Notes under the pieces: model-generated | The model's input: the letters and a program-made list of their open reading frames with translations, nothing else | What the model was told of the DNA's origin: nothing | The model's database searches: none | Translations under genes and position numbers: made by a program | Virus record (IMG/VR): IMGVR_UViG_2547132272_000018 | Origin: a virus | Lineage: Duplodnaviria; Heunggongvirae; Uroviricota; Caudoviricetes | DNA: 4,266 nucleotides | Reading direction: 5' to 3' (one strand) | Part shown: positions 1-4,266 of the stretch, piece after piece | How the letters are laid out: each line of letters opens with the position of its first letter | Position numbering within the stretch: the stretch's first letter is position 1

Positions 1-1
1 T

Positions 2-235
2 ACGCTACGTACTTCTCGGGGCGCTTACGTTTCTAACAGTGACACATCCCTGATCCGTTCGCTGTATCGCAATTTTACTCACCACTACATCAAGGCAAAA
101 CGCAGCATCGGCGTAGCAGCTGGTGAGAGTAAATCTGCAACAGAAATCATCGCTGTTTCTGGGGCGCGCTGCTGGGTGGGATTTGATCCTTCGCGTGGCG
201 TGGATAGTTCTGCCGTGTACGGAGTGCGTGCATGA
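2..235 (+). CDS. 5'-truncated hypothetical phage early protein, C-terminal 78 codons; stop overlaps the gene A start (ATGA)
   Basis: Frame 2 is open from the window edge to TGA 233..235, while the other two + frames hit stops within the first 51 nt. The stop overlaps ATG 232..234 of the next gene, a typical translational-coupling junction. No family recognised. Confidence 0.45.
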
Positions 236-2646
236 GCCATGCTGATATGAACAACTGCAGCGGCTTTAACGAGGCCGCCGCAGCATTCTCATGGAACAGC
301 CCGAAAAAGGCTATTAACCCTTATCTGGACCCGGCGGAAGTTGCGCCGGTTTCTGCGCTTTCAAACCTGATCACTCTGTACGCTGTCGATAACGAGCAGG
401 AACAACTGCGTCGCGAGGCACTGAGTGATCAGGTCTGGGAGCGTTATTTCTTTAATGAATCCCGTGATCCTGTCCACCGCGAAATGGAGCAGGATAAGCT
501 CATTAGCCGGGCAAAGATGGCGCATGAGCAGCAGCGTTTTAATCCAGACATGGTCATTCTGGCTGACGTCAACGCCCAGCCTTCCCATATCAGCAAGCCG
601 CTGATGCAACGTATTGAATATTTAAGCAGCTTGGGCAGGCCAAAGGCTTATTCCCGCTATTTGCGTGAGACGATTAAGCCATGTCTGGAACGACTGGAGC
701 ATGTACGCGACAGCCAGCTATCTGCATCTTTTCGTTTTATGGCAAGCCATGAAGGGCTGGACGGTCTGCTGATCCTGCCTGAAATGAGTCAGGATCAGGT
801 GAAACGCCTGTCTACCCTTGTCGCTGCGCATATGAGCATGTGTCTTGATGCCGCTTGTGGTGATTTGTACGCCTCCGATGATGTTAAGCCAGAAGAAATC
901 CGCAAGACATGGGAAAAGGTGGCTGCAGAAACCCTGCGACTGGATGTCATACCGCCTGCGTTTGAGCAACTCCGCCGGAAAAGAAACCGCCGCAAACCTG
1001 TGCCTTATGAACTCATTCCGGGTTCGCTGGCGCGTATGCTGTGCGCCGACTGGTGGTATCGGAAATTATGGAAGATGCGTTGCGAATGGCGAGAAGAGCA
1101 GTTGCGTGCTGTCTGCCTGGTCAGCAAAAAAGCATCTCCCTATGTCAGCTATGAAGCCGTGATGCATAAACGTGAGCAGCGCCGTAAGTCGCTGGAGTTT
1201 TTCCGTTTTCATGAACTGGTGAACGAAGACGGCGACACGCTGGATATGGAAGATGTGGTAAACGCCAGCAGCAGCAACCCTGCGCATCGCCGCAATGAGA
1301 TGATGGCCTGTGTTAAAGGTCTGGAGCTTATCGCGGAAATGCGCGGTGACTGCGCCGTTTTCTATACCATCACCTGTCCGTCACGTTTCCATTCCACGCT
1401 AAATAACGGCAGGCCCAACCCGACCTGGACAAATGCGACGGTAAGACAAAGCAGCGATTATCTGGTCGGCATGTTTGCTGCATTTCGTAAGGCGATGCAC
1501 AAAGCCGGATTGCGCTGGTATGGCGTGCGGGTGGCTGAGCCGCATCATGACGGTACAGTTCACTGGCACCTGTTGTGTTTCATGCGCAAAAAAGACCGCC
1601 GCGCCATTACTGCATTGTTGCGTAAATTTGCCATCCGTGAAGACCGCGAGGAGCTGGGTAATAACACAGGTCCACGCTTTAAATCTGAGCTGATAAACCC
1701 GCGCAAAGGAACACCGACAAGCTACATCGCGAAATACATCAGTAAGAACATTGACGGGCGTGGTCTGGCTGGCGAGATCAGCAAGGAAACGGGTAAATCC
1801 CTGCGTGATAACGCTGAATACGTTAATGCCTGGGCGTCTCTGCATCGTGTTCAGCAATTCCGCTTCTTTGGCATTCCGGGGCGTCAGGCTTACCGTGAAC
1901 TGCGATTGCTGGCTGGTCAGGCGGCAAGGCAACAGGGCGACAAAAAAGCAGGTGCGCCGGTACTGGATAACCCGCGCCTTGATGCCATCCTGGCTGCTGC
2001 TGATGCTGGTTGTTTTGCCACCTACATCATGAAGCAGGGCGGCGTACTGGTTTCCCGCAAATATCACCTGATCAGAACCGCTTATGAAATCAACGAAGAG
2101 CCGACCGCCTATGGCGATCACGGCATTCGTATTTATGGCATCTGGTCACCCATTGCAGAGGGCAAGATCTGCACTCATGCCGTGAAGTGGAAAATGGTTC
2201 GTAAGGCCGTTGACGTTCAGGAGGCGGCAGCCGACCAGGGCGCTTGCGCCCCTTGGACTCGTGGCAATAACTGTCCCCTTGCTGAAAATTTGAACCAACA
2301 AGGGAAAGACAAATCAGCTGATGGGGATACCAGGACGGACATTACCCGCATGGATGACAAGGAGTTGCACGATTACCTGCACAGTATGAGCAAAAAAGAG
2401 CGCCGGGAACTGGCTGCAAGGTTACGCCTGGTGAAACCGAAACGGCGTAAAGACTACAAACAGCGAATTACAGACCATCAGCGACAGCAGCTCGTCTACG
2501 AACTGAAGTCCAGAGGATTTGATGGCAGCGAGAAAGAGGTCGATTTACTCCTTCGCGGCGGCAGTATTCCGTCAGGAGCAGGCCTGCGTATCTTCTATCG
2601 GAACCAGCGTTTGCAGGAAGATGATAAGTGGCGAAACCTGTATTAA
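232..2646 (+). CDS. A: P2/186-family replication initiation endonuclease gpA (rolling-circle HUH nickase)
   Basis: 804-codon ORF with GGAG (221..224) 7 nt upstream of the ATG. Contains the HUH metal-binding motif [13 protein letters not shown] (H444-W-H446, nt 1561..1569) and the twin-tyrosine motif [13 protein letters not shown] (Y498 and Y502, nt 1723..1737), both nearly identical to motifs I recall from P2 gpA. The N-terminal FSWNSP region also resembles P2 gpA. Confidence 0.93.
2248..2267 (+). other. Candidate origin of replication (gpA nick site) inside the gene A coding sequence
   Basis: GCCCCTTGGACTCGTGGCAA matches 15 of 20 positions of the P2 ori nick region as I recall it (GCGCCTCGGAGTCCTGTCAA). 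It encodes APWTRGNNC, which aligns with APRSPVNNC in P2 gpA. P2-family phages place ori inside gene A. The reference sequence is from memory and unverified. Confidence 0.3.
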
Positions 2647-2715: not shown

Positions 2716-2756
2716 TTTACATCAGTAAGATTATTATATACTGTGAATATAAACAG
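2716..2756 (+). promoter_or_regulatory. Putative sigma70 promoter of the SOS module, overlapping the LexA box
   Basis: TTTACA at 2716..2721; candidate -10 hexamers TATACT (2737..2742) or TATAAA (2748..2753, inside the LexA box). Spacing is not ideal for either pairing, so exact elements are uncertain. Confidence 0.4.
2741..2756. promoter_or_regulatory. LexA operator (SOS box)
   Basis: CTGTGAATATAAACAG is a perfect CTGT-N8-ACAG palindrome with an AT-rich spacer, 44 bp upstream of the ATG at 2800 and overlapping the candidate -10. This matches the LexA-repressed tum promoter arrangement of phage 186. Confidence 0.7.
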
Positions 2757-2799
2757 TGGTTATGTATACAGTGTTGCTTGTGGTGTCATAGGAGGAAAG

Positions 2800-2988
2800 A
2801 TGCAGGACTATTTTTTGGAGTCTTTGAAGCTCCAGCGCATTGATTTTTTTCTTAAGCTTGTAGCGGCTAGTGAGTGTAGTGATGAAGAGAAGGGGCTGGC
2901 TCTGCAGTGGGTTTCTGAATTGACTGATGAACTCATGGCAAAAATCAGAAGCCACGAATACAACCGCTCAATGGATGTCATCAGCTGA
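2800..2988 (+). CDS. Small SOS-module protein of 62 aa, possibly the N-terminal antirepressor portion of a Tum-like protein
   Basis: ATG 2800 is the first start downstream of the LexA box and is preceded by AGGAGG (2790..2795). It is the inner start of listed ORF 2698..2988. The TGA 2986..2988 lies 10 nt before the DinI-like start. No family recognised from sequence. Confidence 0.5.
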   Translation: MQDYFLESLKLQRIDFFLKLVAASECSDEEKGLALQWVSELTDELMAKIRSHEYNRSMDVIS

Positions 2989-2998
2989 GGTGACTTTT

Positions 2999-3232
2999 AT
3001 GCGCATTGAAATAATGATCGATAAAGAGCAGAAGATTAGCCAGTCTACCCTGGACGCCCTTGAATCCGAGCTTTACCGCAATCTGCGCCCCCTGTATCCA
3101 AAAACGGTAATTCGTATCCGCAAAGGTAGCTCTAACGGTGTGGAACTGACCGGACTGCAACTGGACGAAGAAAGAAAACAAGTGATGAAAATTTTGCAGA
3201 AGGTGTGGGAAGACGACAGCTGGCTGCATTGA
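2999..3232 (+). CDS. dinI: DinI-family SOS-inducible protein (Tum C-terminal-domain-like)
   Basis: 77 aa starting MRIEIMIDK and ending ILQKVWEDDSWLH, matching E. coli DinI (MRIEVTIAK ... ILQETWESADDWF) in the N-terminal block, the DALxxEL block and the C-terminal acidic-Trp block. SD GAGGTGA (2987..2993) lies 5 nt before the ATG. It is the inner start of listed ORF 2927..3232. Confidence 0.85.
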   Translation: MRIEIMIDKEQKISQSTLDALESELYRNLRPLYPKTVIRIRKGSSNGVELTGLQLDEERKQVMKILQKVWEDDSWLH

Positions 3233-3286
3233 TTTTGTCAATAGACGCTTGTTTTTACTAATCAAAAAGGGTTACATATGAGTGAG

Positions 3287-3319
3287 AGGCGATGTCAATC
3301 AGATATCGCCTTGTTTTTT
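3287..3319 (+). terminator. Rho-independent terminator ending the SOS module
   Basis: Stem 3287..3296 pairs with 3302..3311 (AGGCGATGTC / GACATCGCCT-type, one G-U pair), 5-nt loop, then TGTTTTTT at 3312..3319. Confidence 0.6.
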
Positions 3320-3345
3320 GTCAAGAAAAGAATAATAGGCTAAAA

Positions 3346-4023
3346 ATGAAAATTAATAATGTAGCGTTACCAATATCTCTTGCTGTAATCCTAACTGGTT
3401 GCGTGCCACATGCTTCTAACCGAAATATCACTGCTATTGAAGTGGTGAAGCCAGCTATTGGGCAAAGTGCTACCGCCTACATGGGCGATCCCATTATCAC
3501 ATCTGCTACTGGATTTAAAACGGACGTACTAGAACTTGGTGCGGCTAATGGTGCATTGTCTTCTATCGCTGCTGGTACATATTGCAGTGAGGGGAATGGA
3601 ATTTACCGCAATTATCATAACCCTCAAGCTGTTGCGTTAAAAAATCTCTATGGGCAAATCGGTAACTATGTTGATTATGTTAGTTACGATGCTGCAAAAA
3701 ATGAGATATCACCGCCAAATGGCACTTCTTATACTGCATCAGAAATTTCTATCAAACGTGTTCCTGATGGGCTGTGTCGAGTGAGTAATTCATTGGTTAA
3801 GACTATCGAATACAATGGAAATGCAGGCGGTGTAATGAAGTTCACCTATCGTGAATTTGCAAACGATATGGCTCGTGCAGCATTTACAACAGATTTTTCT
3901 GTAGATTCTAAGGGAAGTGATGTTATCGCTTACAAAGGTGCCAAGTTCAAAGTGAACAAGGCTGATAACTCGTCTATTTCTTATACAATTATTTCTGGCT
4001 TTGACAAGGCTGTCACGTTCTAG
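3346..4023 (+). CDS. Putative lipoprotein of unknown function, 225 aa precursor; prophage cargo
   Basis: Begins MKINNVALPISLAVILTGC: a basic n-region, hydrophobic core and LTGC lipobox, with Val rather than Asp at +2 (suggesting outer-membrane sorting). Weak SD AGG at 3337..3339. Visibly more AT-rich than gene A. Two further Cys residues, Tyr/Asn/Gly-rich, C-terminal Phe. The listed ORF starts at ATG 3292, but that start lies inside the upstream terminator stem and would bury the signal peptide. Confidence 0.7.
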   Translation: MKINNVALPISLAVILTGCVPHASNRNITAIEVVKPAIGQSATAYMGDPIITSATGFKTDVLELGAANGALSSIAAGTYCSEGNGIYRNYHNPQAVALKNLYGQIGNYVDYVSYDAAKNEISPPNGTSYTASEISIKRVPDGLCRVSNSLVKTIEYNGNAGGVMKFTYREFANDMARAAFTTDFSVDSKGSDVIAYKGAKFKVNKADNSSISYTIISGFDKAVTF

Positions 4024-4127
4024 GTTTCACGCTTACTGAGTATGTTACGATTTTGCACATTCTGCATAAACGCGCATGTCTATGCTGCATGAGATCGCAT
4101 GATCGTTTGAGGATCTTTTGTGTTAAG

Positions 4128-4151
4128 GCCCGCCAGTTCTGGCGGGCTTTT
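4128..4151 (+). terminator. Rho-independent terminator after the lipoprotein gene
   Basis: GCCCGCCAG (4128..4136) and CTGGCGGGC (4139..4147) form a GC-rich inverted repeat followed by TTTT at 4148..4151. Confidence 0.65.
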
Positions 4152-4196
4152 GCGTAGATCATGCAGGTGCATGAAAACCACTACATAAAGCGGGCA

Positions 4197-4215
4197 GGCG
4201 TGGCGGGGATACGAG
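4197..4215. other. Candidate cos site (19-nt cohesive-end sequence of a P2/186-family phage)
   Basis: GGCGTGGCGGGGATACGAG: the first 13 nt match the 186 cohesive end as I recall it (GGCGTGGCGGGGAAAGCAT) and resemble the P2 one (GGCGAGGCGGGGAAAGCAC). The position downstream of gene A and its accessory genes is where cos lies in P2-family genomes. Reference sequences are from memory. Confidence 0.5.
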
Positions 4216-4266
4216 CGCGCGTATTTGGTCGTTACTTAGGGAAGGTGCGAATAAGCAGGTCATTTC

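What the first reader, a model, noticed from the sequence alone, without database searches (positions are those of the whole stretch)
3346..4023. Orphan AT-rich lipoprotein gene in the gene A-to-cos accessory slot
P2 carries its exclusion genes tin and old between gene A and cos, and this locus is variable among P2-like prophages. Here the slot holds a single lipoprotein gene with its own terminator and much lower GC than gene A (hand counts of 60-nt samples: about 53% at the start of A, about 35% at the start of this gene). The product has a lipobox signal peptide, likely outer-membrane sorting, two extra cysteines and a C-terminal Phe, and I recognise no family. It could be a superinfection-exclusion or receptor-masking factor, or a lysogenic-conversion moron; the sequence cannot tell which. 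The DinI-like plus lipoprotein pairing loosely recalls Salmonella msgA-envF, but I cannot verify any sequence similarity.
Basis: partly seen in the sequence, partly recalled or inferred. Interest (0 to 1): 0.75.

Follow-up and report, generated by a model that had tools for sequence, protein, structure and literature searches.

The report
SOS-operon lipoprotein cargo gene beside cos
This is a real, horizontally acquired outer-membrane lipoprotein gene of unknown function that sits in a known anti-phage cargo slot of Fels-2/186-like prophages, so it is a good untested candidate for blocking entry of other phages, not a unique oddity.

Summary
The ORF at 3346-4023 is real. It encodes a 225-aa lipoprotein (lipobox LTGC, Cys19, no Asp at +2) with GC3 of 0.31, against 0.52-0.57 in the neighbouring genes.

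The gene is the last one before cos. It lies downstream of a LexA-boxed promoter, a 62-aa ORF and a Tum/DinI-like gene. An attenuator-like hairpin comes with the cassette.

Among 80 phages with near-identical DinI genes, this slot is empty in 32, holds the lipoprotein in 19, and in 28 holds other cargo, including DarTG and 3HP. Phage 186 carries an unrelated gene, orf97, at the same place, annotated as blocking 186 infection. Distant family members occupy the chaperone-to-tape-measure slot where HK97 carries its exclusion moron gp15. The Fels-2 operon is induced by a DNA-damaging mutagen.

Best reading (about 0.45): an SOS-co-induced envelope protein that blocks phage entry. This is unproven. 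It is a new member of a known kind, of moderate interest.

The parts
1..235 (+). 3' end of the DNA adenine methylase gene, overlapping the start of gene A
   Evidence: By coordinate transfer from the annotated E. coli STEC1587 prophage, which is 98% identical.
232..2646 (+). Gene A, the rolling-circle replication endonuclease (804 aa)
   Evidence: Pfam Phage_GPA E=1.5e-126. phrog_91 E=2e-290. GC 52.8%.
2716..2758 (+). p95-like SOS promoter: TTTACA, 17 nt, TACTGT, overlapping a LexA box TACTGTGAATATAAACAGTG (2739-2758)
   Evidence: A perfect CTGT-N8-ACAG at 2741-2756. The layout matches the annotated 186 p95 promoter and LexA site. The promoter hexamers were read from the sequence by analogy; the consensus scan did not pick them up.
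2800..2988 (+). 62-aa ORF, first gene of the SOS operon (Fels-2 STM2728)
   Evidence: phrog_698 E=6e-38. Annotated in Fels-2 and E. coli. No BLAST similarity to the N-terminal part of 186 Tum.
2999..3232 (+). DinI-like gene, equivalent to the C-terminal half of 186 Tum (TumB-like)
   Evidence: Pfam DinI E=4.6e-23. 43% identity to 186 Tum residues 71-145, E=1e-24.
3233..4071 (+). The roughly 840-bp cargo cassette that relatives either carry or lack. It replaces about 79 nt found in empty-slot phages.
   Evidence: Alignment with EcoM-813R9 and Kp4845-2. Gap sizes are 839-840 nt with the gene and 78-79 nt when empty. GC 39.5%.
3286..3312 (+). Hairpin plus T-run upstream of the lipoprotein gene: a likely attenuator, the positional analogue of 186 t95a
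   Evidence: Terminator scan, 11-pair stem followed by GTTTTTTG. Folding energy -16.6 kcal/mol. Absent from empty-slot phages. 186 t95a is annotated 'partial termination of p95 transcript'.
3346..4023 (+). Lipoprotein gene (225 aa; Fels-2 STM2726; phrog_1353)
   Evidence: High-confidence all-beta AF2 model, pLDDT 90.7. The conserved start is 3346, not the upstream ATG at 3292 (PGAP annotation).
3346..3402 (+). Signal peptide and lipobox, ending at the Cys19 codon
   Evidence: G18 and C19 are invariant. 137 of 165 full-length family members have a lipobox.
4125..4150 (+). GC-rich hairpin followed by TTTT: the shared terminator of the SOS operon, not specific to this gene
   Evidence: Folding energy -21.8 kcal/mol. 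Conserved in relatives with and without the lipoprotein gene.
4197..4215 (+). cos cohesive-end sequence GGCGTGGCGGGGATACGAG
   Evidence: The 186 cos is GGCGTGGCGGGGAAAGCAT at bases 1-19 of its record. Window 4184-4196 aligns with the last bases of the 186 genome.
4222..4266 (.). Start of the second variable cargo region, between cos and the portal gene Q
   Evidence: Homology among all compared relatives stops at 4221. The cos-to-Q distance varies from about 0.2 to 3.4 kb.

Best explanation
The gene encodes an outer-membrane-anchored, all-beta lipoprotein acquired horizontally as a cassette. The cassette sits at the end of the LexA-controlled tum-like operon of a Fels-2/186-like prophage.

Proposed mechanism:
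- Transcription comes by read-through from the SOS promoter at about 2716-2758, across the attenuator hairpin at 3286-3312. The protein would then be made at a low level in the lysogen and rise when DNA damage triggers induction.
- In the envelope it blocks productive entry of incoming phages, at adsorption or genome delivery. Targets would include the phage's own kin. This would make it a non-homologous replacement for 186 Orf97.

Shown: the gene, the lipobox, the foreign composition, presence/absence as a cassette, the shared slot with defence systems, the SOS-operon layout, and DNA-damage induction of the Fels-2 operon.

Inferred: read-through expression, outer-membrane location, and any anti-phage activity.
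For: 1. Position. Phage 186 has orf97 between tum and cos, with a partial terminator before it, and it is annotated as blocking 186 infection when expressed. The window has the same layout.
2. The slot is a cargo hotspot. Of 80 phages with a DinI gene at least 97% identical, 32 have it empty, 19 carry this gene, and 28 carry other cassettes. The other cassettes include DarT/DarG (E=2e-36 and 3e-80), 3HP Hp1/Hp2 (E=1e-239), PDC-S31, PDC-M18A and PDC-S49. Rousset et al. (PMC9122126) define the gpA-gpQ region as an anti-phage hotspot and list the E. coli orthologue WP_000700647 only as 'hypothetical'.
3. Distant family members lie between the tail chaperone genes and the tape-measure gene in several siphophage lineages. 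48 of 66 IMG/VR loci have a tape-measure homologue starting within 2.5 kb downstream. This is the slot of the HK97 gp15 exclusion moron (PMC3594210).
4. All three genes of the Fels-2 operon STM2726-STM2727-STM2728 rose 2.6- to 14.8-fold after the mutagen MX (PMC2225428).
5. No usable promoter of its own was found.
6. It is an envelope protein: lipobox, no Asp at +2, and two conserved cysteines.
Against: - No experiment on this protein exists in the searched literature.
- The family also has non-phage chromosomal copies among housekeeping genes in Kluyvera, and sits in unrelated contexts in marine and environmental bacteria. The ancestral role is therefore not phage-specific.
- P2/186-type phages are thought to use LPS as receptor (my own knowledge), and a lipoprotein cannot obviously mask LPS.
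- Hotspot cargo is not always defensive. Rousset et al. note partitioning systems and toxins there.
- The microarray paper does not say which fold change belongs to which gene, and general prophage induction could contribute to the signal.
Confidence: 0.45

Rival explanations
1. It is a lysogenic-conversion factor that changes host envelope properties for the bacterium's benefit, for example serum or complement resistance, adhesion, or tolerance of stress or antimicrobials. This would resemble lambda Bor or plasmid TraT, with no role in phage-phage conflict.
For: It is an outer-membrane-type lipoprotein carried by prophages of clinical Klebsiella, Salmonella and E. coli. The family has chromosomal non-phage members, which suggests a general envelope role. 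Hotspot cargo includes non-defence genes.
Against: No match to the Bor, TraT or any other Pfam family. SOS-coupled expression with no promoter of its own is a poor fit for a factor needed in the resting lysogen. It recurs in two slots known for exclusion genes.
Confidence: 0.2
2. It serves the phage's own lytic cycle after induction. One version is that it neutralises a receptor or envelope component so that released progeny are not wasted on debris or dying cells, as with T5 Llp. Another is that it conditions the envelope for lysis.
For: It is co-transcribed with the antirepressor module that commits the prophage to induction. It is induced by DNA damage.
Against: It is dispensable. 32 of 80 close relatives have an empty slot, and others carry unrelated cargo there. 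At 225 aa and folded it is too large for an o-spanin, and it lies outside any lysis cassette. Chromosomal homologues are unlinked to phages. This reading also overlaps mechanistically with the main explanation.
Confidence: 0.12
3. It is a periplasmic immunity or inhibitor protein against a cell-wall or envelope-targeting toxin or enzyme, such as a bacteriocin, a T6SS effector or a lysozyme-like enzyme. The phage would carry it as a benefit to the host.
For: The Cronobacter chromosomal copy lies about 1 kb from four LprI (lysozyme-inhibitor family) paralogues and a PG_binding_1 protein. Many periplasmic immunity proteins are small beta-rich lipoproteins (my own knowledge).
Against: This rests on a single context. 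No neighbour, toxin or effector, is conserved across 20 diverse loci. The neighbours that were scanned are heterogeneous.
Confidence: 0.1
4. It is a selectively neutral hitch-hiker with no phenotype in these hosts.
For: It is optional in the phage lineage and no function has been reported.
Against: The reading frame stays full length from 100% down to about 25% identity, with invariant motifs such as YNG, YRE and YKGA, and it gives a confident fold. It is 96-100% identical across three host genera and was seen on at least 1,000 contigs.
Confidence: 0.08

Closest known systems
Phage 186 Orf97, second gene of the p95 SOS operon
   Same: It occupies the same place in the genome: after tum, before cos, preceded by a partial terminator and under a LexA-boxed promoter. 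It is also an envelope-targeted product; Orf97 has an N-terminal hydrophobic segment. By coincidence its 243-codon ORF is the same length as the long reading of this gene from 3292.
   Different: No sequence similarity (E=4.5). Orf97 has a transmembrane-type N-terminus, whereas this protein has a lipobox. Exclusion is annotated for Orf97 and untested here.
Cargo of the P2-like cos-proximal (gpA-gpQ) anti-phage hotspot: P2 old/tin, DarTG, 3HP, retrons (Rousset et al. 2022, PMC9122126)
   Same: It lies in the same inter-gene interval. It shows presence/absence polymorphism between conserved flanks and has low GC. It shares the exact DinI-to-terminator slot with DarTG, 3HP and PADLOC candidate systems.
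   Different: It is a single envelope lipoprotein, not a cytoplasmic nuclease, NTPase or toxin system. It matches no PADLOC model. It lies on the A side of cos and is integrated into the SOS operon.
HK97 gp15 superinfection-exclusion moron
   Same: Distant members of this lipoprotein family sit in the same slot, between the tail chaperone and tape-measure genes, in several siphophage lineages (PMC3594210). Like gp15 with YebO, the family has non-phage chromosomal homologues.
   Different: gp15 is a small inner-membrane protein unrelated in sequence. The copy in this window is not next to a tape-measure gene.
Cor (phi80, N15, HK022) and T5 Llp receptor-blocking lipoproteins
   Same: They are phage-encoded envelope lipoproteins that exclude phages (Cor from PMC3594210; Llp from my own knowledge).
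   Different: No sequence or family match. Those proteins are small and target FhuA. This one is 225 aa with a fold of its own, in a phage type not known to use FhuA.
Salmonella msgA-envF
   Same: Only the superficial pairing of a DinI-like gene with a lipoprotein gene.
   Different: Here the DinI-like gene is the Tum C-terminal homologue of a prophage SOS operon. Similarity to EnvF could not be tested.

Membership tests
phrog_1353 and the wider uncharacterised lipoprotein family | Full-length profile match | tested here: met
   phrog_1353 E=3.1e-105 over residues 1-223 of 225. A profile of relatives recovers 2,434 clusters at 50% identity.
phrog_1353 and the wider uncharacterised lipoprotein family | N-terminal signal peptide with a lipobox Cys | tested here: met
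   LTGC with Cys19. 137 of 165 full-length members have a lipobox and none has Asp at +2.
186 Orf97 | Sequence homology to Orf97 | tested here: not met
   BLASTP E=4.5. tblastn against the phage collection does not return 186.
186 Orf97 | Located after tum and before cos, behind a partial terminator, in a LexA-controlled operon | tested here: met
186 Orf97 | Blocks infection when expressed | not testable with these tools
   Needs a plating or adsorption experiment.
Classical moron (HK97 definition, PMC3594210) | Present between genes that are adjacent in related phages, with deviant GC | tested here: met
Classical moron (HK97 definition, PMC3594210) | Own promoter and own terminator | tested here: not met
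   The only promoter-like site overlaps the start codon. The downstream terminator is shared with phages that lack the gene.
P2-like gpA-gpQ defence-hotspot cargo | Lies between gpA and gpQ next to cos, with variable occupancy | tested here: met
   The orthologue is listed in Table S5A of PMC9122126.
P2-like gpA-gpQ defence-hotspot cargo | Match to a known or candidate defence protein model | tested here: not met
   PADLOC returned no families.
P2-like gpA-gpQ defence-hotspot cargo | Confers phage resistance | not testable with these tools
   Needs an experiment.
Cor/Llp-type receptor-blocking lipoproteins; Bor; TraT | Sequence family match | tested here: not met
   No Pfam or NCBIfam family at E<=1, apart from one spurious hit of 13.9 bits against a cut-off of 366. 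I did not confirm which of these proteins have models in the libraries.
o-spanin (Rz1-like) | Small lipoprotein, embedded in or adjacent to an i-spanin gene within a lysis cassette | tested here: not met
   The product is 225 aa and folded. Its neighbours are the DinI-like gene and cos, and no lysis genes lie in the window.
msgA-envF pair | Sequence similarity of the lipoprotein to EnvF | not tested
   No EnvF sequence was available in the accessible collections. None of the named homologues is called EnvF.

The most novel reading that the evidence does not exclude
A large lipoprotein family, about 2,400 clusters at 50% identity, with no Pfam model and no match among solved folds, is a previously unrecognised class of envelope-level anti-phage protein. 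Phages would have captured it repeatedly from chromosomal genes and parked it in two canonical exclusion slots: next to the tape-measure gene in siphophages and at the end of the SOS antirepressor operon in 186/Fels-2-like myophages. In the latter case, exclusion would be timed to prophage induction.
Probability: 0.3. Interest if true: 0.65.

Novelty: new member of a known kind. Interest (0 to 1): 0.42.

Why it matters
If the protein does block phage entry, three things follow.

- It would add a widespread, structurally new lipoprotein family to the short list of envelope-level exclusion factors (Cor, Llp, SieA, gp15, Orf97).
- It would give a function to a gene carried by many clinical Klebsiella, Salmonella and E. 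coli prophages. That matters for predicting phage-therapy host range.
- It would show that the last position of the 186-type SOS operon is a swap site, where unrelated exclusion genes and cytoplasmic defence systems replace one another.

If it does not, it remains one of many unexplained cargo genes in an already described hotspot.

Tried and rejected
- Homology to 186 Orf97: rejected (E=4.5).
- Pfam, NCBIfam and PADLOC: nothing. The NCBIfam polysaccharide-lyase hit scores 13.9 bits against a cut-off of 366 and is spurious.
- PDB sequence profiles: only macrodomain hits at E about 1, and a TrwH hit confined to the signal peptide.
- Conserved-neighbour analysis over 20 diverse loci: no shared partner gene. 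Pfam and PHROG scans of neighbours were heterogeneous or uninformative.
- The genome-contig scan with the 66-sequence alignment failed for lack of a conserved stretch. It was repeated with a narrower alignment.
- Rfam on the window: only sub-threshold chance hits inside gene A.
- Own promoter: the single candidate overlaps the ATG, so it was rejected.
- The upstream ATG at 3292, which gives the 243-aa annotation used for Fels-2: rejected in favour of 3346, which is the conserved start and gives a normal signal peptide.
- Literature searches for STM2726, WP_000700647, EcHS_A0921, and for Fels-2 with lipoprotein: no functional study.
- The 62-aa ORF as the N-terminal half of Tum: no BLAST similarity.

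Full report
**1. What is in the window**

The window is the right end of a Fels-2/186-like (Peduoviridae) prophage.
- Gene A runs from 232 to 2646 (Pfam Phage_GPA E=1.5e-126). It is preceded by the 3' end of a dam-type methylase gene.
- After A there is a perfect LexA box, CTGTGAATATAAACAG, at 2741-2756. It sits inside a promoter laid out like the annotated p95 promoter of phage 186.
- Next come a 62-aa ORF at 2800-2988 (phrog_698) and a DinI-like gene at 2999-3232. The latter is 43% identical to the C-terminal half of the 186 antirepressor Tum.
- A hairpin plus T-run follows at 3286-3312, and then the ORF under review at 3346-4023.
- Downstream lie a strong hairpin followed by TTTT at 4125-4150 and GGCGTGGCGGGGATACGAG at 4197-4215. 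That sequence aligns with the 19-nt cohesive end of 186. The bases just before it align with the last bases of the 186 virion genome.

**2. Check of the observation**

Confirmed:
- The ORF translates to a 225-aa protein starting MKINNVALPISLAVILTGC.
- G18 and C19 (the lipobox), Cys80 and Cys144 are invariant in 22 relatives, and most end in Phe.
- Residue +2 is Val. None of the 137 lipobox-bearing family members examined has Asp at +2. By the Enterobacterales Lol sorting rule (my own knowledge) this predicts outer-membrane sorting.
Whole genes are 52.8% and 40.7%. GC3 is 0.31 here against 0.52-0.57 for A, the 62-aa ORF and the DinI-like gene. The gene is compositionally foreign.

Corrections:
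- It is not an orphan (section 3).
- The terminator at 4125-4150 is not its own. Relatives that lack the gene keep it.
- The scan found no usable promoter of its own. The single candidate has its -10 element over the start codon.

**3. Identity and distribution**

- The protein matches phrog_1353 (function unknown) at E=3e-105.
- It is 99% identical to Fels-2 STM2726. It is 96-100% identical in Klebsiella prophages (4LV2017 and many others), Salmonella RE2010 and E. coli prophages such as that of strain HS.
- The exact sequence was seen on at least 1,000 contigs.
- It is accessory. 1,343 of 5,426 complete E. coli genomes match the window, mostly over gene A, but only 50 carry this gene.
- Close relatives such as EcoM-813R9 and Kp4845-2 lack it precisely. 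A cassette at about 3233-4071 is replaced there by about 79 nt. Homology resumes at the shared terminator-cos segment.
- A profile of relatives finds 2,434 clusters at 50% identity, 1,256 of them at E<=1e-10. They are nearly all lipoproteins of 210-240 aa, with no Pfam domain and only 'hypothetical' or 'lipoprotein' as names.
- Hosts include Enterobacterales, Acinetobacter, Pseudoalteromonas, Shewanella, Woeseia, Nitrospirales, Geobacter, Planctomycetes and Treponema.

**4. Structure**

- AlphaFold2 with 22 sequences gave pLDDT 80. With 66 diverse sequences it gave pLDDT 90.7 and pTM 0.76.
- The model shows a signal-peptide helix, a short tether, and then an all-beta body of about 17 strands.
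- BFVD and PDB sequence profiles gave nothing. AFDB could not be searched.
- So the fold offers no functional clue.

**5. Context, the main evidence on function**

(a) *Phage 186.* 186 carries orf97 at the same place. It follows tum, is separated from it by t95a ('partial termination of p95 transcript'), and lies before cos. Its annotation reads 'expression from plasmid blocks 186 infection'. Orf97 is unrelated in sequence (E=4.5) and has a hydrophobic N-terminus rather than a lipobox. The window gene is thus a non-homologous occupant of the same functional position, with the same attenuator-like element in front of it.

(b) *The slot as a cargo site.* I fetched 80 IMG/VR loci whose DinI gene is at least 97% identical and measured the interval from the DinI stop to the terminator-cos segment. 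One further locus lacked the terminator-cos segment.

| Slot content | Loci |
|---|---|
| Empty, 78-79 nt | 32 |
| This gene, 839-840 nt | 19 |
| Other inserts, 0.7-2.9 kb | 28 |

The other inserts include:
- DarT and DarG (PADLOC E=2e-36 and 3e-80).
- The 3HP system Hp1/Hp2 (E=1e-239 and 3e-248).
- PDC-S31, PDC-M18A and PDC-S49 (a KAP NTPase).
- An HNH protein and a GNAT-like protein.
- Two small proteins of unknown function.

This slot lies inside the gpA-gpQ anti-phage hotspot described by Rousset et al. (PMC9122126). Their Table S5A lists the E. coli orthologue WP_000700647 merely as 'hypothetical'. A second variable region lies beyond cos, between cos and Q.

(c) *Distant relatives in siphophages.* In K. 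aerogenes, A. soli and A. baumannii (Vieuvirus) prophages, distant family members sit between the tail-chaperone genes and the tape-measure gene. In Moraxella Mcat28 the gene lies among tail genes. Of 66 IMG/VR loci with enough downstream sequence, 48 have a tape-measure homologue starting within 2.5 kb on the same strand. These fall into several groups that differ in both lipoprotein and tape-measure identity. This is exactly where HK97 carries gp15, the first described moron, which is a superinfection-exclusion protein (PMC3594210). The count is inflated by many near-identical Acinetobacter prophages.

(d) *Non-phage copies.* Other members are chromosomal and not phage-linked. The Kluyvera copy lies among housekeeping genes. 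The Cronobacter copy lies near four LprI paralogues. No neighbour is conserved across 20 diverse loci.

**6. Expression**

In a microarray study of S. Typhimurium TA100 (Fels-2 positive) treated with the DNA-damaging mutagen MX, operon 1652 is STM2726-STM2727-STM2728. All three genes were significant and rose. The fold change was 14.8 at the lowest p-value and 2.6 at the highest (PMC2225428). This fits SOS control with attenuation before the distal gene. However, the paper does not assign values to individual genes, and prophage induction could contribute.

**7. Most likely mechanism**

I commit to the following at about 0.45. The gene encodes an outer-membrane-anchored lipoprotein. It is transcribed by read-through from the LexA-controlled promoter, and it blocks entry of incoming phages, at adsorption or genome delivery. 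That would make it the functional counterpart of 186 Orf97.

- Shown: the gene, lipobox, foreign composition, cassette nature, hotspot membership, operon architecture, and DNA-damage induction in Fels-2.
- Inferred: read-through, localisation, and any exclusion activity.

The family occurs in phages of very different hosts and beside tape-measure genes. I therefore lean towards interference with the periplasmic stage of genome delivery rather than masking of one receptor. This lean is weak.

Rival explanations and their weights:

| Rival | Confidence |
|---|---|
| Host-benefit conversion factor | 0.20 |
| Role in the phage's own lytic cycle | 0.12 |
| Periplasmic immunity or inhibitor protein | 0.10 |
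| Neutral passenger | 0.08 |

**8. Comparison with known systems, and verdict**

- It works most like 186 Orf97, HK97 gp15, Cor and Llp. It is a member of none of them: sequence and fold tests failed.
- It does not meet the classical moron definition on promoter and terminator.
- It is a member of phrog_1353 and of the cargo set of the P2-like hotspot.
- The msgA-envF idea could not be tested.
- The gene is already catalogued but uncharacterised, in a hotspot already described. I rate it a new member of a known kind, with moderate interest (0.42).
- The value added here is a sharper hypothesis that can be tested directly. It rests on three points: the precise sub-slot shared with DarTG and 3HP, the parallels with Orf97 and gp15, and the SOS wiring.

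Noticed in passing
window 2716-2758: A p95-like promoter, TTTACA, 17 nt, TACTGT, overlaps a perfect 20-nt LexA box TACTGTGAATATAAACAGTG. It has the same geometry as the annotated 186 p95/LexA site, so the 62-aa ORF, the DinI-like gene and probably the lipoprotein gene form an SOS operon.
   Followed up: partly
window 2800-3232: The antirepressor module is split. The DinI-like ORF equals the C-terminal half of 186 Tum (43% identity). The preceding 62-aa ORF (phrog_698) shows no BLAST similarity to the Tum N-terminal half, so which product is the real antirepressor here is unclear.
   Followed up: partly
window 4072-4221: A 150-nt segment is 84-100% identical across the relatives compared. It contains the shared terminator, short repeats (GCATGAGATCGCATGATC and the palindromic TCATGCAGGTGCATGA) and the cos cohesive end. 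Homology stops 6 nt after the cohesive end, so recombination breakpoints sit tightly against cos.
   Followed up: partly
window 4222-4266; L001-L005 and L006-L063 downstream of the conserved segment: A second, separate cargo region lies between cos and the portal gene Q, of about 0.2 to 3.4 kb. It holds a retron-like reverse transcriptase, a STAS-like pair, a Hypoth_Ymh protein or a 565-aa protein in different phages. The 45 nt of it present in this window match none of the four relatives aligned.
   Followed up: partly
L091, L102, L138 and others (7 loci); L092, L093, L106 and others (7 loci): the DinI-to-cos slot: Two recurrent alternative occupants of the same slot have no Pfam or PADLOC match and are encoded on the opposite strand. 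One is a 141-aa protein with a signal peptide. The other is a 111-aa strongly acidic protein.
   Followed up: no
L166-L168, L174-L176, L084, L177-L256: Distant members of the lipoprotein family lie just upstream of the tape-measure gene in several siphophage lineages. In the K. aerogenes prophage the gene shares that island with Arc-like repressors, a Bro-N/P22 antirepressor-like gene and a pRha-like gene, so it is again linked to an antirepressor module.
   Followed up: partly
L172 (Cronobacter turicensis chromosome), around 6001-10740: A chromosomal family member lies about 1 kb from four tandem LprI (lysozyme-inhibitor family) paralogues and a PG_binding_1 protein. This hints at a link with peptidoglycan-directed enzymes.
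   Followed up: no
protein database cluster of window 3346-4020: The 90%-identity cluster that holds this lipoprotein is represented by a 308-aa branched-chain amino-acid transaminase and mixes the two protein types. This is a clustering artefact, and it explains why the first homology search did not list the gene's own cluster.
   Followed up: no
window 3292-3345: An in-frame upstream ATG at 3292 gives the 243-aa product annotated in Fels-2. It overlaps the attenuator hairpin and is not conserved in relatives. It gives exactly the same length as the unrelated 186 orf97, which is a coincidence.
   Followed up: yes
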